Shown here one piece after another: positions 11,902-64,000 of a stretch of DNA of 64,000 nucleotides; positions within the stretch are counted from its first letter, which is position 1; every line of letters begins with the position of its first letter. Origin of the DNA: Candidatus Latescibacterota bacterium (GTDB taxonomy: Bacteria > Latescibacterota > UBA2968 > GCA-2709665). Made by a program: the position numbers and the translations under genes. The DNA lies in contig OZ241917.1 in NCBI GenBank assembly GCA_965203805.1, positions 1,248,001-1,312,000 of the forward strand. Reading direction: 5' to 3'. The notes beneath the pieces are model-generated. The model was not told the origin of the DNA, did no database searches, and worked only from the letters and a program-made list of their open reading frames with translations.

Positions 11902-13375
11902 TATCCGGGCGCTTCCGCTGCAACTCCTGCTGAGGAGACACCCGGAATGGAAGCGGAGGCCGGTCGCGGTGGTGGAAAAAGAGAATCCTCAGAGCCCCAT
12001 CCTCTGGGTGAACTCAGCGGCCGGGCGGGCCGGCATCCGCACGGGAATGCGCTATGCCTCGGCCCTTTCACTGGACCGGGACCTGTGCGCAGGAACGGTT
12101 TCCGAGAGGGAAATCCAGGCCGCGGTGCGACAGGTCCACCGGCTTCTGGACCGTTTCAGCCCCCGGATCGAGCCCTGCAACGACGAACCCGGGATTTTCT
12201 GGGTCGACGCCAGCGGACTCGACAAACTCCATGCTTCTCTTGAGGACTGGGCCATGCAGATCGACTCCCGCCTCTCCCGGCTGGCGCTGAAGGCCAGCAT
12301 CGTCGTCGGGTTCAGCCGTTTCGGCAGCTATGCCATCGCCAGGTCGGTGAACCGGGTGACCGTGTTTCCTTCCCCCGAGGTCGAGCAGGCGGAAAGCCGA
12401 ATGGTGCGGCTGCTGCATCTGCAAATCGACCCGAAGCTGCGCGACCGGCTCGAAAAACTGGCGGTTCACACCGTGAGCGATTTCCTGGCGCTTCCCTCGG
12501 GCGGCATCGCGCATCGCCTCGGCGAGCAGGCCTGGAGCCTCTACCGTTTTGCGTCGGGAACGCTGTCGCTGCCGATTCAATCCCGGAAGATCCCCGAGCC
12601 CCTCCGCGTCCGGATAGACCTGGACGAGCCCGAATCCAATGCCCAAAGACTCCTTTTCTGGATCCGGCGGCGGCTGGACCCCCTGTTGCGGGCCACGGCG
12701 GCAAGGTGCCAGGCGGTGGCGGCCCTGCACCTGCACCTGCTGCTGGAAGACGGAGACCGTCATCGCCGGCGCATCCAGCCGGCAAGGCCGACCCTGGAGG
12801 CGCCGGTCCTGCTGGACCTGCTCGGTTTGCACCTGGAAACGGTCTCTTTCCGCGCGCCTCCGGTGGAATTGGCCCTCGAGGCGGAGGGTGTGTTCGTCTC
12901 CGCCGAAACCCTGGACCTGCTGCAGCAGAATCCGCGCCGCAATCTCGAGGCGGCCCTGGATGCGCTGGCCCGTGTCCGCGCCGAGTTCGGCCCCGATTCC
13001 GTGCTGTCGGCCCGGCTCAAACCGGGGCACCTGCCGGAAGCCCGTTTCGAGTGGCAGCCCTTCAGGAAGCTTGCCGCAGCCAGTCCCCGCCCGGTCCCCG
13101 TGCGTCCCCTGGTGCGGCGCGTCCACGCCTGTCCCGGACTCCTGGAAGGGGCTTCCCTTTACCAGGCGAAAAACCGGAAGCCGCCGGGCGCCTGTCTGCG
13201 TGCGGACACGCACAGGCAGGCGGAGCACTCGCCGGGACACGCGATCAGCGGAGGATGGTGGCGCCGGGAGATCCGGAGAGACTACCGGTTCATCAACACC
13301 CGCCGGGGGGAACGCCTCTGGATCTATTACGACCAGCAGGCGCGCCGCTGGTACGCCCAGGGCCGCGTCGAGTGA
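11846..13375 (+). CDS. imuB: ImuB, inactive Y-family polymerase
   Basis: AGRAGIRTGMRYASA, RFSPRIEP, GIFWVDASGL, C-terminal ISGGWW...RDY...LWIYYD. Confidence 0.88.
   Translation: MDRAGATPKSAAGRTACINIRALPLQLLLRRHPEWKRRPVAVVEKENPQSPILWVNSAAGRAGIRTGMRYASALSLDRDLCAGTVSEREIQAAVRQVHRLLDRFSPRIEPCNDEPGIFWVDASGLDKLHASLEDWAMQIDSRLSRLALKASIVVGFSRFGSYAIARSVNRVTVFPSPEVEQAESRMVRLLHLQIDPKLRDRLEKLAVHTVSDFLALPSGGIAHRLGEQAWSLYRFASGTLSLPIQSRKIPEPLRVRIDLDEPESNAQRLLFWIRRRLDPLLRATAARCQAVAALHLHLLLEDGDRHRRRIQPARPTLEAPVLLDLLGLHLETVSFRAPPVELALEAEGVFVSAETLDLLQQNPRRNLEAALDALARVRAEFGPDSVLSARLKPGHLPEARFEWQPFRKLAAASPRPVPVRPLVRRVHACPGLLEGASLYQAKNRKPPGACLRADTHRQAEHSPGHAISGGWWRREIRRDYRFINTRRGERLWIYYDQQARRWYAQGRVE
13191..13220 (-). 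mobile_element. 30-bp palindromic mini-insertion in imuB (in frame)
   Basis: Reverse complement CCTGCCTGTGCGTG-TC-CGCACGCAGACAGG has the same arms as the element at 61613-61648. Confidence 0.8.
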
Positions 13376-52300: not shown

Positions 52301-52391
52301 CGGTCCCGGAGGTCGGCGGCTCGCAGGCATTGCCCGTCAGGCCGGTGCAAATCAGGCGTTCAAGTCCGCGTTCGGAGGTGTCTGTGTTCAA
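49389..52391 (-). CDS. hsdR: Type I restriction enzyme subunit R
   Basis: DIGLFINGLPVFTFELK nuclease motif, HSAGSGKS, DEAH, FTATP, KFQTGYDEP, QTLSRLNR. Confidence 0.95.
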   Translation of the reverse strand: MNTDTSERGLERLICTGLTGNACEPPTSGTVAEPPAGYGGVGWSCGNPHDYDQEYCVDLVQLSAFLRNTQPKAVESLSFSKDGPTRRAFLSRLQGEINKRGTIDMLRNGIKHGPLYLDLFYGTPSPDNPNAQERFEQNRFTVTRQLRYSRDEAQRALDIGLFINGLPVFTFELKNSLTKQTVDDAVWQYRKDRNPREKLFGFGRCIAHFALDEREVRFCTHLKGKASWFLPFNRGWNDGAGNPPNPEGLAVAYLWRDVLTRESLANILENYAQVVESKDEKSGKNRRTQVWPRFHQLDVVRRLLEDSGARGAGQRYLIQHSAGSGKSNSIAWLAHQLIGLEKDDAPVFDSIIVVTDRLILDRQIRDTIKQYAQVAATVGHADASGDLRRFIESGKKIIISTVQKFPFILDEIGNEQRGKRFAIIIDEAHSSQGGRTSAAMAQALSEAGEDDDQDTFEDRINRLMESRKLLPNASYFAFTATPKNKTLEIFGAPDPQPDGTVSHRAFHSYTMKQAIQEGFILDVLARYTPVNSYYKLAKTVEDDPEFDVRKAQRKLRRFVEGSDHAIRLKAEIMVDHFHDQVLKQGKIGGSARAMVVTNGIARAIQYYHAIRTYLKERKSQYQVLVAFSGEHEYGGAKVSEASLNGLPSSQIAGRFREDPYRFLVCADKFQTGYDEPLLHTMYVDKTLSGIKAVQTLSRLNRAQPQKHDVFVLDFLNDTDTIRDAFADFYRTTILADETDPNKLHDLQADLDGAQVYSDMQIEDFVRLYLEGAERDRLDPILDACVAVYRSDLDEDGQVAFKGRAKAFVRTYAFLSSILHYNNAEWEKRSIFLNFLVPKLPAPEEEDLSKGILDAIDLDSYRVEKRAMQQILLPDEDAEIDPVPTAGGGHQPELELDRLSNILRDFNEHFGDIQWEDRDRVEQLIIETIPARVAADTAFQNARQNSDRQNARIEHDTALVRVMTAMMKDDTQLFKQFMDNPGFKRWMTDKVFDLAYDPVGT

Positions 52392-52399
52392 CGTGAAGC

Positions 52400-52813
52400 C
52401 TACTGGTCGGTGAACGGGTTTATAATCCGGAGGCCATCGTAGTCCTGATCCGTGCTCAAATCCTCGGTGTACACGTCATCGCAGCCCATGGCACGGGCTG
52501 CGGCGAGAATTGCGCCGTCCCAATAGGACAGCCCGAAACGTTGGCTGATGGCGATTGCTGCAATGAACAAACTGAGCGTGATGTCCTGCACCGGAAAGTG
52601 ACTAATGCTCTCGATGAATTGCAGCGCGTGGTCCTGGGTGATCGCTCCAGGACGGCTGGAGCGCGTAGACTGGTGATAGAATTCCTGGAGTACTTGGACG
52701 GACAACGCAAGATCTCCCTCTTCCAGCAGCCGTTGAGCCGAACGCTGCTTGCCGGCTTCATCAGGAGCGGGGCTGGCCGCGTATATCAGGACGTTCGTAT
52801 CAACAAAGCGCAC
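52400..52813 (-). CDS. PIN domain (VapC-like) toxin
   Basis: FVDTNVLIY, QVLQEF, SYWDGAI, TEDL, INPF. Confidence 0.9.
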   Translation of the reverse strand: MRFVDTNVLIYAASPAPDEAGKQRSAQRLLEEGDLALSVQVLQEFYHQSTRSSRPGAITQDHALQFIESISHFPVQDITLSLFIAAIAISQRFGLSYWDGAILAAARAMGCDDVYTEDLSTDQDYDGLRIINPFTDQ

Positions 52814-52818
52814 GGCGC

Positions 52819-53160
52819 TTACCCGCCCTTGGGATCCTGGCGTTCGACAGCGGCCGCTGCCTCGGCTTCGGCCCTTGCCCTGGCCCGGTCGTACAGCTCC
52901 TCTCGAGACAGGTTGTCGGCGGCCCTGAATCCGGGTGAAGTGGTGCGAATTTTCTCAATGACCTCGCTCAACATCCTGCGCCGACGCTTGGCCTCTGGCT
53001 CCGTGACCGTCCCGTTGTCGGCTGCGCCGCCTGCGCGGTCCGATGCCAGACTCTTCAGGTAGTCTCGCACGAGGGCCGATACCGACGTGTCCAATTCTGC
53101 CGCACGGATGCGCGCGAGCCGATGTGTCTCTTCGTCGACGGATACGGTGATATTTCTCAT
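52819..53160 (-). CDS. VapB-like antitoxin (RHH)
   Basis: MRNITVSVDEE...TSVSALVRDYL...LSREELYDR, upstream of the PIN gene. Confidence 0.82.
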   Translation of the reverse strand: MRNITVSVDEETHRLARIRAAELDTSVSALVRDYLKSLASDRAGGAADNGTVTEPEAKRRRRMLSEVIEKIRTTSPGFRAADNLSREELYDRARARAEAEAAAAVERQDPKGG

Positions 53161-53200
53161 AGTCACAGCCTCACAGTTTCTGTGTATCACAATATACGCA

Positions 53201-53371
53201 TTAGCCGGCCGAATACCCGCGACCAGGCGGGCGGCCATCCTGATCGGCGCTGTCGATCAGGTCTCCGTTGGCCAACCCGTCCCACCCTTTTTCTGCCGCC
53301 GTATCGACTGAGTGTGCGGGGAATTCCCGCCTGAGGGGCCTGGGCGTACCGTGATCAAACAGTATCTTCAA
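53201..53371 (-). pseudogene. Truncated DUF5615-like PIN toxin
   Basis: Manual translation LKILFDHGTPRPLRREFPAHSVDTAAEKGWDGLANGDLIDSADQDG then an early stop; overlaps the DUF433 end. Confidence 0.72.
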
Positions 53372-53603
53372 GGCTGCTCACCGGCACGGGCGCCTTCAGG
53401 GAGTCTGCCACGTATTGCAGGACGGCTCTCACCTTCCATTCGTCGACGGGCGCGAACCACTCCATGAACTCCTTGATGGTGGCACCGGCCTCCAGGTTCT
53501 CAAACAGGGCCGATACGGGCAGTCTACTGTCGGTGAAGAGCCAGGCACCGCTGACCTTGCCAGGGATTCGCTCCACCCCAGGGCACTTCGACCAATCAAT
53601 CAT
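53355..53603 (-). CDS. DUF433 antitoxin
   Basis: PGKVSGAWLFTDSRLPVSALFENLEAGATIKEFMEWF. Confidence 0.88.
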   Translation of the reverse strand: MIDWSKCPGVERIPGKVSGAWLFTDSRLPVSALFENLEAGATIKEFMEWFAPVDEWKVRAVLQYVADSLKAPVPVSSLEDTV

Positions 53604-53626
53604 GTCCTCTCCTCCTCTGCAACTGG

Positions 53627-53653
53627 GTACTCTTCTGCCGATTCTTCGGCGTC
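53627..53653 (-). repeat. Orphan copy of the hsdS 3' tail
   Basis: 26/27 match to 56991-57017 (DAEESAEEY); likewise ends in an ATGA overlap with a DUF433 start. Confidence 0.8.
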
Positions 53654-53732
53654 CGCCAGGCGTCTGTGGTCAAACTGTAACCGTGCAGTGGTTCACCACA
53701 ATCGAATTCGTCGCCGTTGCCGGTGGGGCTGC

Positions 53733-53797
53733 TCGTCGACGGATACGGTGATGTTCTTTATAGTCACAGTCTCACAGTTTCTGTGTGTCACAATATA
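53733..53797 (-). pseudogene. Degenerate copy of the antitoxin promoter and 5' end
   Basis: Near-identical to 53132-53196, with start ATG changed to ATA. Confidence 0.8.
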
Positions 53798-53959
53798 GCC
53801 AACAATCGGTCGATGGGCAACGACTGCGGCAGCAGTCTGCTGGTCTTTATCGCTCGTTTTCGGCTAATTCTACCAGGTCGCCGCGGTACCTAAAGTCATA
53901 GTTGTGGTGTTCGCGACTAATCCACCGAGAAACCCATCACACCAGCGAACAGATGCGGC

Positions 53960-54562
53960 TCAAGAGTTCCTTCTCCGCATCCGCCTACCCAGGTCGTATT
54001 CACATCCACCCCGCCTATCGAAGGTTACATTCACAAGAAACTCAAGGTTTCGGGGAGTGAGTTTTCCCCAAGGCACGACTGAAACGTGCGCCTTAGGTGC
54101 AAGTAGATTATCAATTATTCGATCGGGCAAATGGGGATATCTCATTTCATATTCGGCGCGGTTGTCGATTGTCCCCCAAGATCCTATATCCGGATGGATT
54201 AGGCGTTTTTCCTCATCACCATGTGCTGCAGTGACGTATGTACATTGGGTGGAAGGCAAGTTGACAACAAGGATTCCAGACTTTTTGTTCCTGACGCCAT
54301 CAAACATGCTTGAGTACAGCTCCCAATCGATGTGTTTCCGCCACTTCGTTTCCGTACCGACGAGAAGAATTGTAACGGTTGAGTCTCGTAGATAATCATC
54401 ACGTATCTTCTCGCGTATTGTCTCATCGCTCAACTCTTCGGAGATGTCCCCGCTATCTACGGATCTATCGATGAAAACGCCAAAGTTCGTACCCATCTCA
54501 ATCAAACCATTCTTATAGGCTTGGTCGTTCTCGTGATGATAGCTGACAAACACTTTATGCAT
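53960..54562 (-). CDS. TIR domain protein (ThsB / MTH538-like)
   Basis: HKVFVSYHH, STVTILLVG, KHIDWEL with candidate catalytic Glu, GILVVNLP. Confidence 0.88.
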   Translation of the reverse strand: MHKVFVSYHHENDQAYKNGLIEMGTNFGVFIDRSVDSGDISEELSDETIREKIRDDYLRDSTVTILLVGTETKWRKHIDWELYSSMFDGVRNKKSGILVVNLPSTQCTYVTAAHGDEEKRLIHPDIGSWGTIDNRAEYEMRYPHLPDRIIDNLLAPKAHVSVVPWGKLTPRNLEFLVNVTFDRRGGCEYDLGRRMRRRNS

Positions 54563-55064
54563 AAGTTCGATCCCTTTCTGAGAAAGATTCTATCAAAATC
54601 CGCTGCGCCGTACAGGCCTTGCCTTCATCGGTTTGTGAATTTAGGCAAAAGGCGACTATCCCGATGACACAGATAAGCAGGAAGCCTAAAGGCATCAGCA
54701 GCCCAGTGTATTTCCGCCTAAAAAATCGACGTTTCTCAAATTCCTCCGTCTCGCGACCGAGAAAGTTGTATGGCAGGTCTTTTTCCAAAGTCACAAGTAC
54801 TTTGTGCTTTGCAGCCAGCCGGCCCGTCACGGAATGCAGCGAAAACATCCAGGAGAGGGATACAAGAATCCCCAACAGATACAGTACCCAGATCGTCTCA
54901 GTGCCCGGCGCCAGCTTGTGAAGGAGTACCGATGCTGCGACTATACTGGTGACCATTCCTGAATATAGCTTGTTCAAGCTCTCTCGAAGCGAAGCTACTC
55001 GTTCCGCAAGTTCGGCGTGGAGCTTATACGTCTCAAGCAACAATTTTCTATTGTCACCACTCAT
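54555..55064 (-). CDS. Small membrane effector-like protein (RipA/Pycsar-effector-like architecture)
   Basis: LLETYKLHAELAERVASLR..N helix, hydrophobic segments, AKHKVL..LE..LP; overlaps the TIR start. Confidence 0.65.
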   Translation of the reverse strand: MSGDNRKLLLETYKLHAELAERVASLRESLNKLYSGMVTSIVAASVLLHKLAPGTETIWVLYLLGILVSLSWMFSLHSVTGRLAAKHKVLVTLEKDLPYNFLGRETEEFEKRRFFRRKYTGLLMPLGFLLICVIGIVAFCLNSQTDEGKACTAQRILIESFSERDRTYA

Positions 55065-55207
55065 GCGGACTCCCTTCGCACACAGATCGGATCCAGTACC
55101 CGCTTGCACGAGAATGTTGCAACCGTGACGTCGACAGCGCATTGCGAGGGTATAACCTACAATCGCAAATCTACGTCAAAGGTCCCACACGAAGCTTTTT
55201 AAACAGC

Positions 55208-55678
55208 CTACAAGACATTCTCGCAAATCCACTCGTCTAATTCGCCCCGATCACGCAACCGCTCCAGAGCTCTCACTACCGTCGGCGAATTGTTAACCCA
55301 GTTATACATGATTCTTGCACGAGGCTTCTGCATGGCGTGTGCCCCGCCAATTTCGTAACCGATCCACATTGAAACCGCGATCGCAGCAGTCACGTTGACC
55401 AAGAAACCGTCACTATCGAGGATCGTGGTCATGATGTAGTCCGGTAATTCGTCTGAGTCCGTGTCGACATTATCGTCCCACTCAGCCATGTAAACCATGA
55501 CCCTGTGCGTGTTTACGATATATTCTGCTTCTCGTTCGGCCTTCCAATCGTCGGTTTTGTGAGACATGAAGACCAACCTGCTTTCAGGCGTCCTTTCGAG
55601 CACCAAATGCTCTGCAAAGACCTGTGAAACGGTTTCAGGGCGATGGAACCTTACCAATTTGTTGAATCTAAGTGCCAT
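55208..55678 (-). CDS. TIR-like domain protein, paralog 2
   Basis: VFMSHKT, DGFLVNV, SMWIGYEIGGA. Confidence 0.78.
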   Translation of the reverse strand: MALRFNKLVRFHRPETVSQVFAEHLVLERTPESRLVFMSHKTDDWKAEREAEYIVNTHRVMVYMAEWDDNVDTDSDELPDYIMTTILDSDGFLVNVTAAIAVSMWIGYEIGGAHAMQKPRARIMYNWVNNSPTVVRALERLRDRGELDEWICENVL

Positions 55679-55852
55679 AACTTTGTACACCAGAATCGAA
55701 GTTGAAGCACCAGCCCGTCCTGACGAAACGGTTGCTTTGCGCCCTAAGCAGTTCGCTTACTATACGCAATGAAACGTGAAATCGTCAGCATAGTCAGTAA
55801 TATCCAATTGCCAAGAGATGTTCGAGTGCTTGTACTTAGCCACCCGAACGAC

Positions 55853-56323
55853 TTATAGAATATTCTTCAAGATCCAATGGTCTACCTCGTACCGATTGCG
55901 CAACCGCTCCAGAGCATTCACTACAGACGGCAGACCCGCTATCGAGTCGTACATGATCTTAGCACGAGGCTTCTGCATCGCATGTGCCCCACCAATCTCG
56001 TAACCAATCCACATTGAAATCCTGATCGCAGCGATTACATTGACCAGAAATCCGTCACATTTGCGGATGGCATTCATAATGTAATCCGGCAATTCGTCCG
56101 AATCATCCTCAACATTGTCGTCCCATTCGGCCATGTAAACCATCACACCGGGCAAGAGCACGATGCGCCTTGCTTCCCGCTCGGCTTGCCAATCGCCGGT
56201 CTTGTGAGACATGAACACGATTTTATCGGTAGCGGCCTTAGTGCGTACTACCTGTTCGGCCAAATACCGGGTGTCGATTTCAGCGTGATCTCGTCGAACC
56301 AATCTGTTGAATCTAACCGCCAT
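55853..56323 (-). CDS. TIR-like domain protein, paralog 1
   Basis: VFMSHKT, AIRKCDGFLV, SMWIGYEIGGA. Confidence 0.78.
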   Translation of the reverse strand: MAVRFNRLVRRDHAEIDTRYLAEQVVRTKAATDKIVFMSHKTGDWQAEREARRIVLLPGVMVYMAEWDDNVEDDSDELPDYIMNAIRKCDGFLVNVIAAIRISMWIGYEIGGAHAMQKPRAKIMYDSIAGLPSVVNALERLRNRYEVDHWILKNIL

Positions 56324-56738
56324 AAGAATGAACCTCGAATTCGTCGGTGTTGAGCCCGCGATTTTCAAGTTTGCACTGCTGTCCGAAGGTAATGCAGGAT
56401 CTCACCCCAACCGAAGGTCCGTAATTTCCCAAAGTCAGCTCAATTACCCATCACTGTATTGCGTGATCGAAAGTAATCGATCGGTTGTGCGCCGTAATAG
56501 GGATTACTGAAATCAATCCATTACCGGTGGCGAGACATTCGCCATCGAATTTGGGCTGCCCTCCAAGTATTAGGTCAGTTGTAATCGTGTAACTTGGAAA
56601 CAGAACTTACGACAACTCCAAGTTGCGAACATACCCGCCGAAACCATCGGTAGCTTCGCGAAAATTCCAATCTGCGGTGTCGCTGTTGGTCACGCTATCT
56701 CTGTTCCGCATTCAGATCGGGAATTCACCAAATTCGCT

Positions 56739-56967
56739 TCAGGTTCGGATTGGCGTTCTGAGATGGTCAGCTTCGTGTTTCAGTACGACCGGGACCTGCC
56801 ACGGCCTCACTTCGGTGAACCACTCGAGGAACTGACTCAATGGTGGCCCCGCTCTCTCGGTCTTCAAAAAGAGCCACTACCGGCAACTTTTTTTCGGTGA
56901 ACGCAATGGCTCCGCCGATCTTCCTGTCATTTCGTTCGACTGCCAAGAAGTTGCTTCAGTCGGTCAT
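56739..56967 (-). pseudogene. DUF433 antitoxin pseudogene
   Basis: MTD*SNFLAVER..KIGGAIAFTEKKLPVVALFEDRESGATI / QFLEWF; nonsense codon and frameshift; aligns with 53355-53603. Confidence 0.75.
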
Positions 56968-58418
56968 ACGGTCATTTCGTCTTCGGCTGCGTACTCTTCT
57001 GCCGATTCCTCGGCGTCGGTGTAGTCGTCTTTGGGAAGCGTGTCGAGTTCCGGAAGTTCGGCCGCCGCTTCGCGCACGTCAAGCTTGCCGGTGACGACAT
57101 CGGCGATCAGGCGGGTGCGGTACTCTTGGATTAAGTCGATTTCTCGTTTTAACCGACCAATCGCATAATCCAGGCTGTTCGTTTTCTCAGAGATTACGTC
57201 AAGTATGGCTGCTTGCACTTCCAGAACTGGAAGAAAAACCGGAAATCTGCGCAGTGTGCTGCTATTGGTGGAGGCGAGGTTCGTCGTCTGCTTTGCTGTT
57301 AATTCGAAATATGTCCGTCCGTGTATCGACCCCATGAGTCCAACAAGAAATTCTGGGCTAAGGAGTCCTCGCTTACAACGCACCGCAAAGATGTGATTCT
57401 GGTGTAAACATCCAGGAATCTCATCTCGCCATACACATCCACGCCCGAGTTTGTCGATATCTCCACCTTCTGTCATCAGAACATCCCCCGTCAACACGGT
57501 GCTCCGATTCGCCTCATTCAGCGGCACACTGATAGACTTGATGTTTGTCAGGTCCAAACATCCTGCCTGAACATTAGCGACGCGTAAGTATGGTCGAGAT
57601 ATTGTTCGCGTACTACTGTAGTCCTTGCCCAACGTTAGACCTGTTTGAACCTGCGCTACATCCTTGAGACGGTGAAGTTGCCAATCCTCCGGCACCTGTC
57701 CTAGCCACTTCACACCTGACGGCTTGTAAGCCGGGTAGGGCTTTCCGGTTCGGACGTCGATCTGGCCTGTGACGGCCTGATGGATGATAGCCTGTTTCTG
57801 CTCCTCCAGCAGCGAAATCAGCCTCTGTTTGGCGCGGATGTAGCGCTGGATGCGCCGGTCGGCGTGGTCGAGGAAGCGGACGATGGCGGTTTGTTCGGCG
57901 AGGGGAGGGACACATGTGTAAATCATCTTGAAGTGTTCAGGACGCAGACTCCACATATCCGACGTAATGCCATAAGACCATCGCTCAGTCTCCTTTGCGA
58001 ATCCGGGCGTCCGGAACAGAAAATGGACGAAGTCAGAATCAACGCCATCGCGTGGACGTTGTACGATGTAGGCCGGACTTACGATGCCTTGGTAATCAGA
58101 AGCTCCGAAGGCGCCCTGCCAGGCTCGCATTTTGTTATATGCTATGTATCCGGGCCGGACCAATTTGTAGGCAGACTTATCCAGGTTCGAACCGTCTTTC
58201 TTTGTGCTGTCCTCCAGAAGCTGATTCTGAAGGATGACTCCCCGTTTGATCGTTACGGAGAGCATCGGTTCCTCTGGATGATCACGTTCCTTCACTTCTT
58301 CAAAGAGTGTGCGATTAGGTAAAACCTCCCAGTGGGACGGAACTTTACCCAACCACTTTACTCCGGAATCCTTCATTTTGGGATACGGCCACAATTCGTT
58401 GGTTTTCGAAAACTGCAT
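56964..58418 (-). CDS. hsdS: Type I RM specificity subunit S
   Basis: DSGVKWLGKVPSHW and PSGVKWLGQVPEDW repeats, PPLAEQTAIVRFLD, EYRTRLIADVVTGKLDVR. Confidence 0.93.
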   Translation of the reverse strand: MQFSKTNELWPYPKMKDSGVKWLGKVPSHWEVLPNRTLFEEVKERDHPEEPMLSVTIKRGVILQNQLLEDSTKKDGSNLDKSAYKLVRPGYIAYNKMRAWQGAFGASDYQGIVSPAYIVQRPRDGVDSDFVHFLFRTPGFAKETERWSYGITSDMWSLRPEHFKMIYTCVPPLAEQTAIVRFLDHADRRIQRYIRAKQRLISLLEEQKQAIIHQAVTGQIDVRTGKPYPAYKPSGVKWLGQVPEDWQLHRLKDVAQVQTGLTLGKDYSSTRTISRPYLRVANVQAGCLDLTNIKSISVPLNEANRSTVLTGDVLMTEGGDIDKLGRGCVWRDEIPGCLHQNHIFAVRCKRGLLSPEFLVGLMGSIHGRTYFELTAKQTTNLASTNSSTLRRFPVFLPVLEVQAAILDVISEKTNSLDYAIGRLKREIDLIQEYRTRLIADVVTGKLDVREAAAELPELDTLPKDDYTDAEESAEEYAAEDEMTV

Positions 58419-58701
58419 GCCAAGCGATCCTCGTCGGAATCTCCTGCATCATTCGGTATAACAACGATATTAAGCGTCACAAATGAAATACCTGGTTGTT
58501 CTCCCTCGATTAGGCCGGCAGGTTTTCCACGAACTGCTTGAAATTCGGTACTTTTTACACTACCGCATACAGGTCCTTTGAGAACTGCGCCTCCGGACAG
58601 CTTTCCGACCACGACGTTTCAGAACGGTGAGAAATTCGTGATCGACTTATGGTTTCTCGGCCCAGTGTTCCTTCTTCGCCAGTCGCCAAATCGCTTACCG
58701 T

Positions 58702-59085
58702 CTATCGAGCAGCGATGTCATCCAGCTTTGCGTTGATCGTCTTCCATCTCCATGGGATCGGGTCTTCAAGCGAGGATAGCCCACTATACGGCCTATCCTG
58801 AGCCACGATTTGGATGGTAGGCTTGCTGAGGCTGCGGGCTAACTCCGTTTCGACGATGACGCCGGGAGCGTTGTGCGTGTCTTGACCGATCAGGACGACT
58901 ACTACGTCACACTCTGCGATGGCCTTTTTCGCCTGGTTCTTCCAGTCTTCATCCGGGTACGCCTCATTGAGAGAGCAGTTGTGTACGCGATGTTGGGTAT
59001 GTTCTTTTGCCTGTTCGAAGAAGCTATTCTTGAGGTCGTGGTCTTTATCAAACTCAAAACTCACAAAAATGCTGAGACGCGGCAT
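58702..59085 (-). CDS. TIR domain protein (MTH538/ThsB-like)
   Basis: IFVSFEFDKD, CDVVVVLIGQDTHNAPGVIVETELA. Confidence 0.85.
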   Translation of the reverse strand: MPRLSIFVSFEFDKDHDLKNSFFEQAKEHTQHRVHNCSLNEAYPDEDWKNQAKKAIAECDVVVVLIGQDTHNAPGVIVETELARSLSKPTIQIVAQDRPYSGLSSLEDPIPWRWKTINAKLDDIAAR

Positions 59086-59229
59086 AAGCTCTACCCTCCT
59101 CTGAATTTAAATTTGAATCGGATTTTCTCGGCGGCGTTCGAATGGATTTGTCGGGAGGTACTAAGGTGCTTTTATGGTGTAAAAGCTATCGATTGCCTGA
59201 TTCTTCGCCTTGCGGCTATATACGTGTGT

Positions 59230-59330
59230 GTCATCCTGCGTATGGATGCCAAAACCGGAGGTGCTTGCTGAATAACCCCTGTCTACTTCATCTTCGCTGG
59301 TTTCAATAATGATCCCGGTGCTGGTCGTCA
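59230..59330 (-). pseudogene. HicB-like antitoxin remnant (approximate limits)
   Basis: IIIETSEDEVDRGYSASTSGFGIHTQDDT resembles a HicB N-terminal fold, then diverges. Confidence 0.45.
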
Positions 59331-59360
59331 CTCGCTCTTGCACTTTCGTTTCCCTTCGGG

Positions 59361-59576
59361 TCAGCCGTCGCGACGGTCTGTTGGCCTGTTCTGTGTCGAA
59401 TTGCGAATCCGCGCGGCCATCGCTTCCAGCACGGGGTCGGAATACCGCCTGGAATTGAACCACTCCACCGTTTCCTCTGCTGTCATGTCGGCGGTTTCGG
59501 CAGTAATGCGGGCGCGGGCCTTGCGCATGAACTCGACACAGTCGAAATTCTTCTTGCGGCGGGGCTCTTCAGTCAT
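59361..59576 (-). CDS. Small 'FDC' protein B2 (putative antitoxin)
   Basis: KKNFDCVEFMRKARARITAETADMT; near-identical to 62421-62636. Confidence 0.7.
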   Translation of the reverse strand: MTEEPRRKKNFDCVEFMRKARARITAETADMTAEETVEWFNSRRYSDPVLEAMAARIRNSTQNRPTDRRDG

Positions 59577-59726
59577 GGACGATTTCCTCGGGCGCGCAAA
59601 TGTCGATAGCACCGAATCCATTCTGACAATTGACCTCGTTGCAGGCCCTGATGCCATGCCAGTTCACCATCTGTCTGAAGCTCCAGCTTGCGCTGAAAGC
59701 CTCCACTCCCTTCCCGATCTTCATCA

Positions 59727-59963
59727 TCAATCGCCCTCGGCGCCGGATCGTCCGACGTCGCTTGCCCTATCGTCCTGCCAGGGTCGCACAACCCTGGACT
59801 TCGGAATGCGAGCGAAGAATGGATCTTTTCGGACAGCCGCATTGAGCCGCCGACGCCGCTCTTCCGGTGACATCCCCACCAGTTCCGCGTTGATCCTGTC
59901 CCGGACCTCGCGCGTCCACTTTACGCAGTCGAAAGCCCTTGCGCTGCTCTCACTATTCTTCAT
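59727..59963 (-). CDS. Small 'FDC' protein A2 (putative antitoxin)
   Basis: FDCVKWTREVRDRINAELVGMSPEER; overlaps the PIN remnant stop. Confidence 0.7.
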   Translation of the reverse strand: MKNSESSARAFDCVKWTREVRDRINAELVGMSPEERRRRLNAAVRKDPFFARIPKSRVVRPWQDDRASDVGRSGAEGD

Positions 59964-60111
59964 TTACATGCTCCGTCGGGCTGCGCATGTCCACCGGTGG
60001 GTATCCCATGCGCCGGTTCACCGCGTTGTACATCCTGATTCGCCACAGGTTCACCATGTGCCTGAAGTTCCAGCCTGTCGCCATCCGTAGCGGTGACGCG
60101 TGCGTATTCAT
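59953..60111 (-). pseudogene. Internally deleted PIN gene remnant
   Basis: WNFRHMVNLWRIRMYNAVNRRMGY matches the PIN C-terminus at about 63140-63215. Confidence 0.78.
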
Positions 60112-60255
60112 GACCGTCTGCCATCTCCAATAATCTCGTCTAACAACCCTTCGGTCTCCCTCTCAAGCGCCACGATGTCAGCCCGTATTTCTTCCAACGT
60201 CCGCATCGGCTGGGGTTTGTAGAAGTATCGCGTGAAGCTGATTTCATAGCCGATC
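60108..60255 (-). pseudogene. Orphan hsdM 3' tail with its own stop codon
   Basis: IGYEISFTRYFYKPQPMRTLEEIRADIVALERETEGLLDEIIGDGRRS*; 60193-60255 matches 63644-63706 (62/63). Confidence 0.9.
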
Positions 60256-60920
60256 TTGAGGGTGGTCAGGTCCCAGGTGTGAGCAGCAGAGGCCAGACCC
60301 GGGCGTGGTCAGAATTCATGGGTCTGAGTTAGCCATGACTTCCTTGTGTTCTACAGGTATTCAACATGCCCGGCCATCTCTTCGGCTTCCAAAACCTGAT
60401 AGATCAACATCAAGCCACGAATTATCTCACCAACCGTGTTTTCTTGAGACGTGTAGACAATTCCTCTGTGGTCAGGTACAATTGCTGCAAGACGAAGAAA
60501 GTCATCGTCCTGCGTGAAGATGACTCGTTCTGTTTCCCTGGCAATTCCAAGGATTACCTCGTCTGACGCACCAAGATTCCCGGCTTCGGCAACAGTCAGT
60601 ACGTCCACGCCTCTCCGACGGAGCCCCATTACAATTGCTCTGGAGACATTCTCATGGAAGCTCTGATTAAGTTACCTATTGGCACGCCATGCAGAAAGTC
60701 GTAGAATTGGAGCGTGAGCCGTCGTGTTGTGATTTCTGATGGATCGACATAGAACGAGGGGCCCAGGGATGAAACAAATGAGTTTTTCGGATCTGGCGTA
60801 CAGGACGAAGAAGAAGCAGACGCGCAGGGAACGTTTTCTGAAAGAGATGGATGCGGTGTTGCCGTGGGAGATACTGCTTAAATCGATTGAGAGGAAGTAT
60901 CCGAAACCTGGCAACGGTCG

Positions 60921-60947
60921 CCTGCCTGCCGAGTCGGCGCAGGCAGG
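60921..60947 (+). mobile_element. 27-bp palindromic mini-insertion CCTGCCTGCCGAGTCGGCGCAGGCAGG
   Basis: Removal restores GNGRRPIG. Confidence 0.88.
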
Positions 60948-61057
60948 TCGTCCGATCGGTGCGGAGGTGATGCTGCGTATCTACTTTATGCAACAATGGT
61001 ATGGATTGAGCGATCCGGGAATGGAAGACAGTCTCTACGACGTGGAGTCGATGCGTC

Positions 61058-61076
61058 CCTGCCTGCTGCAGGCAGG
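61058..61076 (+). mobile_element. 19-bp palindromic mini-insertion CCTGCCTGCTGCAGGCAGG
   Basis: Removal restores the frame and ESMRRFAGVNINGVPDETT. Confidence 0.9.
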
Positions 61077-61612
61077 GCTTTGCGGGTGTGAACATCAACG
61101 GCGTACCTGATGAGACGACGATCTGCAAATTCCGTCACTTTCTGGAGCACCATGGGTTGACGGAAGCGTTGTTTCGGCAAACGAAGCGCTACTTGTCCAG
61201 GCGGGGATTGATCGTGAACGAAGGCACGATCGTGGATGCCACGATCATTCACGCGCCTTCTTCGACGAAGAACAAGGATCGGAAACGGGATCCTGAAATG
61301 GCCAGCACGAAGAAGGGCAACACGTGGCATTTCGGCATGAAGGCGCACGTGGGCGCGGATGTGAAGGGACGGGTGCACAGTGTGGTGACCACCCCCGCTT
61401 CGGTGCATGATTCGCAGGCGATGGATGCCTGTCTGCACGGAAAAGAAAAGACCATCTACGGCGACAAGGCCTATGCGGATCAGACGCGAAAAGAACGGGC
61501 CGAAGCCAACGACGTGGAATGGCGAGTGCTTCGCAAGGCCCGCCGGGGCAAGCGGCTCAACTGCGCGGATGTTTCGTTCAACAAGAAGAGCAATCGCACG
61601 CGCGCACGGGTC

Positions 61613-61648
61613 CCTGCCTGTGCGTGCTGTCTCACGCACGCAGACAGG
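61613..61648 (+). mobile_element. 36-bp palindromic mini-insertion CCTGCCTGTGCGTGCTGTCTCACGCACGCAGACAGG
   Basis: Removal restores RARVEHPF, the DDE Glu motif. Confidence 0.9.
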
Positions 61649-61981
61649 GAACATCCCTTTGGGATCATCAAACACCTGTGGGGCTACCGAAAGGTCAGGT
61701 ATCGCGGTCTGGCGAAGAATACGGCGCATCTGTTCACCTTGTTTGCCTTGGCTAACTTCCATATGGCACGTCAGGAACTGGCTACTACATAGGCACCCGT
61801 GCCTCCAATTCGGACGCTGGCGGCCAAAATGGCCGGCACCGAGCGCATCCGGGGCCGGAATCACCCGTGCAAACCCGAAAGATGACGACCCTCTCAACAT
61901 AAACAGCCTCCGAAACGACCCATAAGTTACAACTTGCTCATTCCCTCTGGTTGATCAGAGGTTCCCTCATCGGTCAAAAAC

Positions 61982-62311
61982 TTAATCGTTGCCATGTTGG
62001 GTCGAGTCTTGGATCTTTTGGGAAATCTTCGAAGAAAACTTCTGACGCAAGGAATCTACAAATGCTCGACTCTCCTCAAGCGATCGGTCAATCTCATTCT
62101 GATGATCGAAATAGTAAGCCAGTGCTGCGTATACATCCGCCAGGGAAATGTCGTAATCACTGGCGATTTCGTCGGCGCTCTTGCCCAGGCGCTCGTGCCA
62201 GATGACGATATTCTCGACGGCAATTCGACGACCGACAATGCGCGGTTTGCCACCTGAAATGCCCGGGGTGATCTCAATATGTTGATTCAGGGTTTCCGTT
62301 GTCATTTCCAT
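61982..62311 (-). CDS. DUF433 antitoxin
   Basis: ITPGISGGKPRIVGRRIAV, ADVYAALAYYFDH. Confidence 0.9.
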   Translation of the reverse strand: MEMTTETLNQHIEITPGISGGKPRIVGRRIAVENIVIWHERLGKSADEIASDYDISLADVYAALAYYFDHQNEIDRSLEESRAFVDSLRQKFSSKISQKIQDSTQHGND

Positions 62312-62420
62312 CTCCTCCTGAGTTCAGCGACCGTCACGGAGCCCTCACGTTCATCGCCGACATCAAAGAAGAACCGGGGTCGGGGCGTCGCCCGCCCTTG
62401 CGCGTCAGTTTCCCTTCGGT

Positions 62421-62636
62421 TCAGCCGTCGGGACTGTCTGTTGCCCTGTTCTCATTCGATTTGCGTATTCGCGCGGCCATTGCTTCCAGCACAGGGTCGG
62501 AATACCGCCTGGAATTGAACCACTCTATCCGTTCGTCAGCAGTCATATCGGCGGTTTCGGCCGTAATGCGGGCGCGGGCCTGGCGCATGAATTTGACACA
62601 GTCGAAATTCTTCTTGTGGCGGGGGCTTTCAGACAT
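62421..62636 (-). CDS. Small 'FDC' protein B1 (putative antitoxin)
   Basis: KKNFDCVKFMRQARARITAETADMT; start uncertain. Confidence 0.7.
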   Translation of the reverse strand: MSESPRHKKNFDCVKFMRQARARITAETADMTADERIEWFNSRRYSDPVLEAMAARIRKSNENRATDSPDG

Positions 62637-62900
62637 GGACGATTTTCTCATGGGCTCGATTGTCGATCGTGGCGTATCCATTGACGCCATTGCAGAGCAC
62701 GATGCGCATGAATCCTTCTATGCGGGAAAAGGCTTTAGGTCGGGGATCATGGAGTTACCCATAGAGAGTATCTCGTACTTCGCGATTGAATAAACCAAAA
62801 AGACCCGCAACGTCGGCAATGATTCAGTCAAGCGTCCCGACTCGCTCGTCCCGATGCCTCGGTACGGTCTCGCCGTGCCGGCTGCTTGTCAAGCCATTGA

Positions 62901-63104
62901 TCAGGGTTCATTCTCTTTGTCTTTTTCCGATTCGCGCAATGGCGCCGCCAGTCGTTCCAGAACAGGATCTTCATAGCGATACGTGCGATAGTACTGGATT
63001 CGCTCTGCAGGGCTCATGCCGGCTGTTTCTGCGGCAATCCTCGCACGAACCTCACGCACAAAGCGGATGCAGTCGAACCTCTCGGTTGCGGTATCATTTG
63101 TCAT
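62901..63104 (-). CDS. Small 'FDC' protein A1 (putative antitoxin of the upstream PIN)
   Basis: FDCIRFVREVRARIAAETAGMSPAER...DPVLE; overlaps the PIN stop. Confidence 0.7.
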   Translation of the reverse strand: MTNDTATERFDCIRFVREVRARIAAETAGMSPAERIQYYRTYRYEDPVLERLAAPLRESEKDKENEP

Positions 63105-64000
63105 AGCTGATCGCCTCCGGGGATAGGACGTTCAATTCCTCGTACCCCATTTGCCGGTTGACTGCGTTGTACAACCGGTTTCGTCGCCAGTTCACCATGT
63201 GCCTGAAATTCCAGCTTGCCAAAACGTCGGCCTCAGCCAGGGTTGCCAGGGCGATATGCTCCGCGTCGGCGCGGTTCGCAAGGCCGAGAGCCCCGGAACC
63301 AATGTATGCGTCCGCAAGCCGTTCTGCCTCATCTGTGAGAAAGAGCATCTCTTTGTTCGCAGCGGGAATCTGATCGATCACATTGCGCACGCTTTCCGGT
63401 GCCCCCGCCAGTTCCCTGAGAATGACTTCTGAATAAACGAGGATAGCATCTCCGTGCTTGAACTTATCAAACAACTCCATGGATGCCTCACGGACCTCAT
63501 CGTCCAGACATCCGCCGATCACCGAGGTGTCCACGTAGATGCGCGGCTTGCCGTACACAGCCGGCGGTTCCCGCACCATCGGCAGGTCGCCGAGTAACCC
63601 CTCGGTCTCTTTCTCCAGCGCTCTGATATCCACCCCGATCTCCTCCAACGTCCGCATCGGCTGGGGTTTGTAGAAGTACCGCGTGAAGCTGATTTCATAG
63701 CCGATCCTGACACTGTCGGGTCGGTACCAGGCGTCAGGCGCGTAGGGCAGGACCTCCCGCTGCAGGAACGCTTCGATGCCGCCCTCCTCTTGCAGCGGAA
63801 TCTGCTCTGTGTCGCGCAGGTCGGTGTCCGGTTCGTACTCGACCACGGCAGTCTTGCCGTTGACGGTAGCCTCAAAACGTCCACGTAGCGGGTCGGCTTC
63901 CGTGCCCTTTCTGTGGATCTTCTTGATAACGGGCGGCGCGGCTTCGCTACGCTCGCCGGTTTCCTTCATCTTCTTGATTTCGGCGGCCTTATAGGCACGG
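63094..64000 (-). CDS. hsdM: Type I RM methyltransferase HsdM C-terminus fused in frame to a PIN domain (5' part outside window)
   Basis: YEPDTDLRDTEQIP, REVLPYAPDAW, IGYEISFTRYFY (HsdM tail), then RIYVDTSVIGG...DAEHIALA...SWNFRHMVN (PIN) with no stop between. Confidence 0.85.
   Translation of the reverse strand, partial: RAYKAAEIKKMKETGERSEAAPPVIKKIHRKGTEADPLRGRFEATVNGKTAVVEYEPDTDLRDTEQIPLQEEGGIEAFLQREVLPYAPDAWYRPDSVRIGYEISFTRYFYKPQPMRTLEEIGVDIRALEKETEGLLGDLPMVREPPAVYGKPRIYVDTSVIGGCLDDEVREASMELFDKFKHGDAILVYSEVILRELAGAPESVRNVIDQIPAANKEMLFLTDEAERLADAYIGSGALGLANRADAEHIALATLAEADVLASWNFRHMVNWRRNRLYNAVNRQMGYEELNVLSPEAISYDK

What the first reader, a model, noticed from the sequence alone, without database searches (positions are those of the whole stretch)
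60921..61648. Family of ultra-short CCTGCCTG...CAGRCAGG palindromic elements inserting precisely into coding DNA
Seen: three separate hairpin insertions (27, 19 and 36 bp) in one IS5 transposase gene, plus a fourth (30 bp) in imuB. They share terminal 8-mers, have variable cores and show no target-site duplication. Exact removal restores GRRP, MRRFAG and RVEHPF, which are conserved IS5 motifs. One insertion shifts the frame and one lies immediately before the catalytic Glu. Known: REP/REPIN and Rickettsia palindromic elements are loosely analogous but longer or mostly intergenic. Inference: a minimal non-autonomous mobile element moved by an unknown trans-acting enzyme. Its clustering in an IS suggests preference for mobile DNA, a possible transposon-silencing role, or just relaxed selection. 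Removal at the RNA or DNA level is also conceivable.
Basis: partly seen in the sequence, partly recalled or inferred. Interest (0 to 1): 0.88.

Follow-up and report, generated by a model that had tools for sequence, protein, structure and literature searches.

The report
Tiny hairpins with nuclease-carrying parent element
The 19-36-base DNA hairpins pasted into this transposon gene share their exact ends with a 282-base mobile cassette that carries a small DNA-cutting enzyme gene and sits in frame inside many unrelated bacterial proteins, so that enzyme is likely what spreads these very small mobile elements.

Summary
All four hairpins are real. The three in the IS5 gene are precise insertions without target duplication; empty alleles exist as DNA. 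The genome holds about 260 copies, and the family occurs in many phyla and in phage contigs.

This scan had already noted the family on other DNA of this genome, without naming an enzyme.

New here: 4.1 Mb away, the same arms enclose a Slx1/UPF0213-like GIY-YIG nuclease domain. This 282-bp cassette sits in frame in hsdM. Relatives occur at 35 insertion contexts in restriction-modification and housekeeping proteins. The enzyme is under purifying selection and the arms are frozen at DNA level. The window's 27-mer equals the cassette's first 14 plus last 13 bases.

Best reading: autonomous cassette plus miniature derivatives, spread by nicking and host repair (inferred, about 0.5).

Against: 7 of 9 high-copy relatives lack the cassette, a RAYT gene tracks copy number better, and no chemistry is shown. 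There is no evidence for RNA-level removal.

Unexplained: all five identical IS5 copies carry the frameshift and no intact copy remains.

The parts
60656..61965 (+). IS5-family insertion sequence, 1310 bp; one of five 100%-identical copies in the genome, all with the three hairpins
   Evidence: NCBIfam transpos_IS5_4 above cut-off; site empty in another strain
60651..60655 (+). left copy of the 5-bp target duplication of the IS5
   Evidence: empty-site joint 60650-61966 with 5 shared bases
61966..61970 (+). right copy of the 5-bp target duplication of the IS5
60656..60670 (+). IS5 left terminal inverted repeat
61951..61965 (-). IS5 right terminal inverted repeat
60769..61792 (+). interrupted IS5 transposase gene (DUF772 part, frameshift, DDE part)
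60921..60947 (-). 27-bp bulged hairpin, in frame; on the minus strand it equals the first 14 plus last 13 bases of the genome's 282-bp GIY-YIG cassette
61058..61076 (.). 19-bp hairpin, shifts the frame
61613..61648 (.). 36-bp bulged hairpin, in frame, directly before the Glu of the EHPF motif; same element at the same site in an 82%-identical IS5 of G007
13191..13220 (+). 30-bp bulged hairpin, in frame, in the C-terminal linker of an imuB-like gene

Best explanation
The hairpins are likely non-autonomous miniature derivatives of a 282-bp mobile cassette that has the same bulged-hairpin arms and encodes a Slx1/UPF0213-like GIY-YIG nuclease, which is predicted to be the enzyme that spreads both forms. 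SHOWN: the hairpins insert precisely, mostly between a purine and a pyrimidine. The cassette (G000:C1:5397827-5398108, minus strand, outside the window) has the same arms, lies in frame in hsdM, has empty alleles, and recurs in many unrelated host proteins. Its residues typical of GIY-YIG active sites are conserved and its terminal bases do not drift. INFERRED: the nuclease is made as a fusion with its host protein. It would recognise the folded arms in single-stranded or cruciform DNA and nick at the branch, as Slx1 cuts branched DNA and SsnA cuts beside its hairpin. Host repair and ligation would then paste or copy the element into a nicked site. Cutting of empty homologous sites would give homing-like conversion, which would explain the same element at the same site in diverged IS copies and the same hsdM and hsdS sites filled across many lineages. 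The five filled IS5 copies were likely either moved in trans by an intact copy since lost, or filled by conversion after transposing.
For: The arms enclose the GIY-YIG frame in G000. The hsdM site is empty in 11 of 12 relatives with a match and in a second copy in G000; the twelfth, G016, is filled. The left arm is exact at offset 0 in 8 of 8 cassette loci with DNA and the right arm in 6 of 8; one has a mismatch and one a nested insert. None of 47 mappable more distant GIY-YIG loci has an arm (54 examined, 7 not mappable). 114 of 192 proteins held keep both end peptides, 94 of them over exactly 94 residues, in 35 contexts. Hosts include HsdM, HsdS, HsdR, type III Mod, SNF2 helicase, trigger factor, ArgRS, TatD, TrmD and TfoX (52 proteins scanned). 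G000 versus G016 gives dS 0.83 and dN 0.10; codons 1-4 and 91-93 show no synonymous change in 6 of 6 pairs. Y12, Y22, G24, R32, H36 and E69 are at least 97% conserved. The model has pLDDT 91; its top fold matches are UPF0213 and Slx1, with weak E-values. The 27-mer is 14+13 terminal bases, two 33-mer types are 18+1+14, and the common 20-mer is 9+11. The target rule is shared: a purine lies 5' in 88% of 144 oriented sites, and the residue before the cassette is D, G, N, H or R in 32 of 35 contexts and never F, L, I or V. The cassette occurs in 2 of 9 high-copy versus 0 of 159 other genomes of the phylum. It occurs in 4 of 50 element-bearing genomes drawn from other lineages, including the densest; one-sided p 0.009, n=4.
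Against: Seven of 9 high-copy relatives gave no close cassette match; five of them also lack its left-end pattern, including single-contig G015 and G021. 46 of 50 other element-bearing genomes lack it. A RAYT-like gene tracks copy number better within the order (6 of 9 versus 0 of 44). GIY-YIG enzymes cut but are not known to join strands (established knowledge). Only 6 of 86 types (36 of 262 copies) are explained by the four cassette ends tested to within 2 bases, and for the shortest types that match is nearly implied by the arms. The direction (deletion from the cassette, or capture of a gene into a hairpin) is not shown. The co-occurrence tests are not corrected for kinship. No activity or expression was measured.
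Confidence: 0.5

Rival explanations
1. A HUH (RAYT/TnpA-REP-like) transposase moves the hairpins as 'double-foot' REP-like units by single-strand cut and rejoin. The GIY-YIG cassette is then a cargo-carrying version whose nuclease only helps it home, as TnpB does for IS605 (recalled analogy).
For: HUH chemistry gives joins without duplication and cuts at a dinucleotide, in cis and at a distance from the hairpin (PMC3479197, passages). That fits G|C preference, nesting and local clusters. A RAYT orthologue at 77-91% identity is in 6 of 9 high-copy and 0 of 44 other genomes of the order. Three sister contrasts on an rpoB tree point the same way. The inner stems covary around a 2-base bulge.
Against: That RAYT is flanked by its own, different REP family. 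It was not found in G015, G021 or G007. The guide prediction that CTGT arms prefer A|C failed: 9 of 72, against G|C 32 of 72. There is no leading/lagging strand bias (61 of 127; the GC-skew curve is ragged, so this test is weak). One IS200-type Y1 frame was the only Y1 motif hit among the frames of the loci scanned.
Confidence: 0.27
2. No dedicated enzyme is needed. Short single-stranded DNA or RNA copies, with the hairpin looped out, anneal to short homologies and are copied in by host repair, as recalled for the cyanobacterial SDR model.
For: The same element sits at the same site in IS copies 82-99% identical, without nearby flank differences being carried along. Targets are mostly repeated DNA (54 repeat-associated or transposase families cannot be told from this; 43 of 74 families have empty paralogues). 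Same-type sites share slightly more flank identity (4.2 versus 3.5 of 12).
Against: It does not explain a conserved nuclease locked inside the arms at 35 contexts. The flank signal is small and confounded by leftover homology. Cores do not resemble their flanks (p 0.73). A reverse transcriptase was found in 1 of 5 genomes tested.
Confidence: 0.16
3. The hairpins are removed from RNA or skipped by ribosomes, so the interrupted transposase stays active, or they act as a host switch on transposons.
For: Five identical IS5 copies, each with its own target duplication, all carry the frameshift, and no intact or close IS5 transposase was found in the genome. Frameshifting 19- and 20-mers in confirmed coding DNA lie in transposases.
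Against: Empty RNA contigs match empty DNA or a diverged relative (contigs only, so rare spliced forms would be missed). Elements lie in both orientations within genes. The identical-copy expansions in two other IS families are empty lineages. No Rfam match.
Confidence: 0.06

Closest known systems
Small dispersed repeats (SDR) of Nostocaceae, Elhai et al. 2008 Genome Res 18:1484 (paper not held; seen only through citing passages in PMC5861425, PMC3116915 and PMC2884548; other details recalled)
   Same: About 20-30-base dispersed elements; recalled to sit in tandem repeats, miniature transposons and copies of themselves, as seen here.
   Different: Different sequence and a broad phylum range. 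The cited passage confines SDR5 to Nostocaceae. I recall no cognate enzyme for SDRs; here the arms enclose a nuclease gene.
Ssn nucleases with NTS/SRM hairpins, Chenal et al. 2025, PMC11893778 (abstract and sections 8, 10, 12 read)
   Same: Roughly 94-residue single-domain GIY-YIG nuclease paired with a short hairpin repeat of high copy number.
   Different: ssnA is a free gene between two hairpins and NTS are rarely in genes. Here the gene lies inside one split hairpin and is fused in frame to host proteins. Its closest structures are UPF0213 and Slx1; membership of cd10448 was not tested.
REP/REPIN with RAYT (TnpA-REP), including double-foot and intragenic REPs (PMC6006769 sections 12 and 15 part 1; PMC3733652, PMC3479197, PMC8266576 and PMC3116915 passages)
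   Same: 20-40-base bulged palindromes, hundreds per genome, patchy among relatives, sometimes in frame in genes.
   Different: No GTAG or CGTC foot and no flanked RAYT gene. Single units insert precisely, often into other REPs.
Slx1-like GIY-YIG domain recently inserted in HsdR of Methylococcus capsulatus (Dunin-Horkawicz et al. 2006, PMC1564403, passages)
   Same: Minimal Slx1-like domain inserted in frame in a type I restriction subunit, with an empty close homologue.
   Different: A single case; the passages read mention no hairpin ends, no family and no miniature derivatives. Whether that insert has these arms was not tested.
Inteins and homing endonuclease genes (established knowledge; homing as described in PMC1564403 passages)
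   Same: In-frame nuclease insert; the same host site is filled in many lineages.
   Different: No splicing domain fits in 94 residues; the element is bounded by DNA hairpin arms and uses dozens of unrelated sites.

Membership tests
REP/REPIN-RAYT | GT[AG]G or CGTC tetranucleotide at the hairpin foot | tested here: not met
   All 86 types begin with the CCTG arm (the search pattern itself fixes this)
REP/REPIN-RAYT | RAYT gene flanked by the cognate repeat | tested here: not met
   The RAYT loci are flanked by a different REP; an element lies in 1 of 20 such loci, inside that REP
REP/REPIN-RAYT | Cleavage dinucleotide set by a foot guide | tested here: inconclusive
   G|C is preferred, but the CTGT to A|C prediction failed
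Classical MITE | Target-site duplication | tested here: not met
   Exact 27/19/36-base gaps in empty alleles
Classical MITE | Ends shared with an autonomous element | tested here: met
   Ends shared with the 282-bp cassette, which encodes a nuclease rather than a transposase
SDR of Nostocaceae | Very short structured element, nested and lying in other repeats (definition recalled) | tested here: met
   35 of 262 are nested levels; covarying stem; 43 of 74 site families have empty paralogues
SDR of Nostocaceae | Sequence identity to SDR1-8 | not testable with these tools
   Paper not held
Ssn/SRM | Single-domain GIY-YIG of CDD family cd10448 | not tested
   No CDD library; closest solved sequences are UPF0213 1zg2 and 1ywl and Slx1 6seh
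Ssn/SRM | Free-standing gene flanked by whole hairpins | tested here: not met
   In-frame insert between the two arms of one hairpin
Ssn/SRM | Site-specific cutting of single-stranded DNA | not testable with these tools
   Needs purified protein
GIY-YIG superfamily, Slx1-like group | GIY and YIG motifs, central Arg, C-terminal Glu, and the fold | tested here: met
   PF01541 above cut-off; Y12, Y22, G24, R32, E69 conserved; fold ranks UPF0213 and Slx1 first, E about 1e-3
Intein or self-splicing intron | Removal from protein or RNA | tested here: inconclusive
   No sign of RNA removal in contigs; no Rfam match; raw reads were not available

The most novel reading that the evidence does not exclude
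A new class of prokaryotic mobile element: a 282-bp, promoter-less unit that lives as an in-frame domain inside host proteins and is driven by a minimal Slx1-like nuclease instead of a transposase. It mobilises 19-37-base hairpins made only of its two ends. Other orphan tiny-hairpin families would then have cognate GIY-YIG clades of their own.
Probability: 0.45. Interest if true: 0.93.

Novelty: new variant of a known kind. Interest (0 to 1): 0.8.

Why it matters
How elements of only 20-35 bases move has been an open question since the SDR and intragenic palindrome papers. This gives a directly testable enzyme-substrate pair: a 94-residue nuclease and arms that can be ordered as oligonucleotides. 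It would also explain unexplained peptide inserts and GIY-YIG 'domains' in many annotated proteins, such as HsdM, HsdS, ArgRS and trigger factor. If the nuclease drives scarless insertion, it is a very compact insertion system.

Tried and rejected
Assembly artefact: rejected.

Target duplication or shifted boundaries: rejected by empty alleles.

Replication-strand bias: none. Core copied from the flanks: not above shuffles. Foot-guide rule: failed.

Shared reverse transcriptase: found in 1 of 5 genomes. Free small GIY-YIG genes do not track copy number: G015 has none by Pfam, low-copy G031 has two. Y1_Tnp as a whole is in 34 of 53 genomes regardless of copy number.

Neighbour clustering in 80 viral and 80 genome loci showed no recurrent nuclease. 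The lead came from 80 metagenome loci chosen for paired elements.

The cassette was not found in viral contigs (none among the 18 loci, checked) or in plasmids (best hits under 60% identity).

The single-sequence fold was useless (pLDDT 47). In the covariation alignment one of 13 rows was taken at wrong coordinates and one in the opposite orientation; both were left in.

Pure tolerance as the cause of IS enrichment is not sufficient on its own: 24 independent sites per 100 kb of transposase DNA against 0.7-3.8 in non-coding DNA. My gene calls are rough, and IS travel between hosts.

Literature: no description of the motif, its peptides or the cassette (open-access library only; two of these searches were swamped by unrelated words). 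No supplements were read; those of PMC11893778 and PMC6006769 could list these repeats.

Full report
OBSERVATION. The pattern has 4 matches in the window against 0.00 in shuffles. In the 5.87-Mb genome iterative stripping finds 262 elements of 86 sequence types: 227 innermost, 30 at a second nesting level and 5 at a third. The arm pair occurs 258 times; 13 control word pairs give 0-7. A few long matches are not hairpins and are probably chance. Most types fold into an arm stem, a 2-base bulge and a variable inner stem-loop, and the inner pairs show compensatory changes (one of 13 rows mis-extracted). Lengths cluster at 33, 31, 30, 27, 36 and 19.

PRECISION. IS5 relatives in G002, G013 and G003 are empty at the sites they cover. 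A 99%-identical IS5 in DNA run X4 lacks exactly 27, 19 and 36 bases, and that strain lacks the whole IS at this locus. Run X2 carries all inserts at about 5 times flank depth. The 226 outer sites fall into 74 site families, 43 of which have empty paralogues in the genome. Of 144 oriented sites pooled over five data sets, 88% have a purine 5' of the element and 3% have A on the 3' side; G|C is commonest (61 of 144). Two of the three IS5 sites are C|G exceptions. The imuB insert is real, but orthologues have one more codon beside it.

TARGETS. Sixteen of 74 families lie in transposase genes (IS5, IS1380, IS630, IS1182-like, IS21-like), which cover 1.1% of the DNA. Thirty lie in other repeats, 12 in leftover elements, 10 in unique non-coding DNA and 6 in unique coding DNA. 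Multi-hit frames recur in other genomes; two were confirmed as transposases by Pfam, three had no Pfam match. The same element often occupies the same site in diverged IS copies, with closer relatives empty, which suggests conversion or hot spots. Deletions between two neighbouring elements also occur.

RANGE. Copy number is 0-281 among relatives; 9 of 168 phylum genomes have 60 or more. The host is probably Ca. Latescibacterota (inferred from shared core types), and the best-holding metagenome runs are from sponge and coral.

THE CASSETTE. In 80 metagenome loci chosen for paired elements, GIY-YIG domains recurred: three fused into restriction-modification or helicase frames and four as small genes beside tRNA pieces. 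Inspection of the genome's own GIY-YIG match showed that it lies between the two arms: a 282-bp unit at G000:C1:5397827-5398108, in frame in an intact 623-residue hsdM. The site is empty in 11 relatives and in a second hsdM piece 3 kb away, and filled in G016. Protein searches return a large family. Of 192 proteins held, 114 keep both end peptides and fall into 35 host contexts, two of them large (35 and 26 members). A looser count gave 87 of 151 hits. Hosts range from HsdM, HsdS, HsdR and Mod to trigger factor, ArgRS, TatD and TrmD; two named ones are Candidatus Taylorbacteria and Komeilibacteria proteins. The interior evolves under purifying selection while the terminal codons show no synonymous change. 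The arms mark this clade only: 8 of 8 versus 0 of 47 loci. The protein is Slx1/UPF0213-like by sequence and predicted fold.

LINK TO THE HAIRPINS. The window's 27-mer is the cassette's first 14 plus last 13 bases. Two 33-mer types are the first 18 and last 14 bases of the G000 and G016 cassettes plus one base, which is the third position of a proline codon. The residue before the cassette implies the same purine-first target rule. Most core types are not explained by the four ends tested, so cores diversify or come from other cassettes.

CO-OCCURRENCE, BOTH WAYS. The cassette is in 2 of 9 high-copy and 0 of 159 other phylum genomes, and in 4 of 50 element-bearing genomes (50 of 63 candidates searched), which are denser in hairpins. 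It was not found in 7 of the 9 high-copy relatives. A RAYT orthologue is in 6 of 9 versus 0 of 44, with three concordant sister contrasts, but it has its own REP. Restriction loci turn over quickly, so past or transient presence of the cassette is plausible; that is an inference.

MECHANISM. Shown: precise insertion, shared ends, mobility of the cassette, a conserved nuclease. Inferred: expression as a fusion, nicking at the folded arms or at targets, completion by host repair, and homing-like conversion. I give this 0.5, a HUH mobiliser with the nuclease as cargo 0.27, enzyme-free conversion 0.16 and RNA-level removal 0.06.

THE IS5 PUZZLE. Five 100%-identical copies have separate target duplications, yet all carry the frameshift and the insert before the EHPF glutamate, and no intact IS5 relative was found. 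The identical-copy expansions of IS1380 (4 copies) and the IS1182-like family (7 hits) are empty lineages. A lost intact helper or conversion after transposition is more likely than activity of the broken gene, but this is open.

KNOWN KINDS. It works like the SDRs and intragenic REPs, and the enzyme-hairpin pairing recalls Ssn/NTS (PMC11893778, sections read). It fails the tested defining features of REP-RAYT, classical MITEs (no duplication) and the Ssn gene layout. One in-frame Slx1-like insert in HsdR was noted in 2006 (PMC1564403, passages). I found no description of the motif or the cassette in the searches listed; the SDR paper was not available. Earlier notes of this scan describe the hairpin family in this and other genomes without an enzyme, two with a GIY-YIG neighbour as a hint; a sequence look-up with a cassette protein returned nothing.

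VERDICT. Real, widespread and now testable. New variant of a known kind on present evidence; categorically new if the nuclease proves to be the mobiliser. Interest 0.8.

Noticed in passing
L446, L481, L487 (also L453, L161, L525): Small free-standing GIY-YIG genes sit beside tRNA pieces; in L446 and L487 the gene follows a duplicated 5' half of a tRNA gene that carries two hairpin elements while the downstream copy is empty. tRNA identity was read by eye.
   Followed up: partly
L567 (G021:C1 near 2274500); L582, L584, L593, L596: Another GIY-YIG clade is flanked by a different hairpin family (CTTCGACA..CTCAG type, recalled as SDR1-like); one such hairpin is nested inside an element of this family in G021.
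   Followed up: no
L002:1978-5685 and L573: Restriction-modification genes are repeatedly invaded in frame by small nuclease modules: a RAYT domain in a DUF1156-like methylase here, and DUF559 together with the GIY-YIG cassette in P0003, P0023 and P0056.
   Followed up: partly
L001:2513-3118: A RAYT-like gene amid long arrays of its own REP-bearing repeats; an orthologue is shared across two genera.
   Followed up: yes
G000:C1:1369844, 1663562, 2176237: Deletions between two neighbouring elements leave one hybrid element in IS1380 and IS630 copies.
   Followed up: partly
G000:C1:3240000-3470000: A dense zone of long intergenic repeats with about 137 empty and 52 filled homologous sites genome-wide.
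   Followed up: no
L008 (G007): The IS5 carries a second 27-bp insert with variant arms (CCCGCCTG..CGGGCAGG), so the strict pattern undercounts the family.
   Followed up: no
G117, G061, G062, G135: The reversed control pattern occurs 55, 9, 9 and 7 times, possibly a different palindromic family.
   Followed up: no
window 49389-64000: The IS5 sits in a type I restriction island with toxin-antitoxin-like, TIR-like and repeated small genes, read from the frames only.
   Followed up: no
P0044, P0080: Some HsdS proteins carry two cassettes or tandem cassettes.
   Followed up: no
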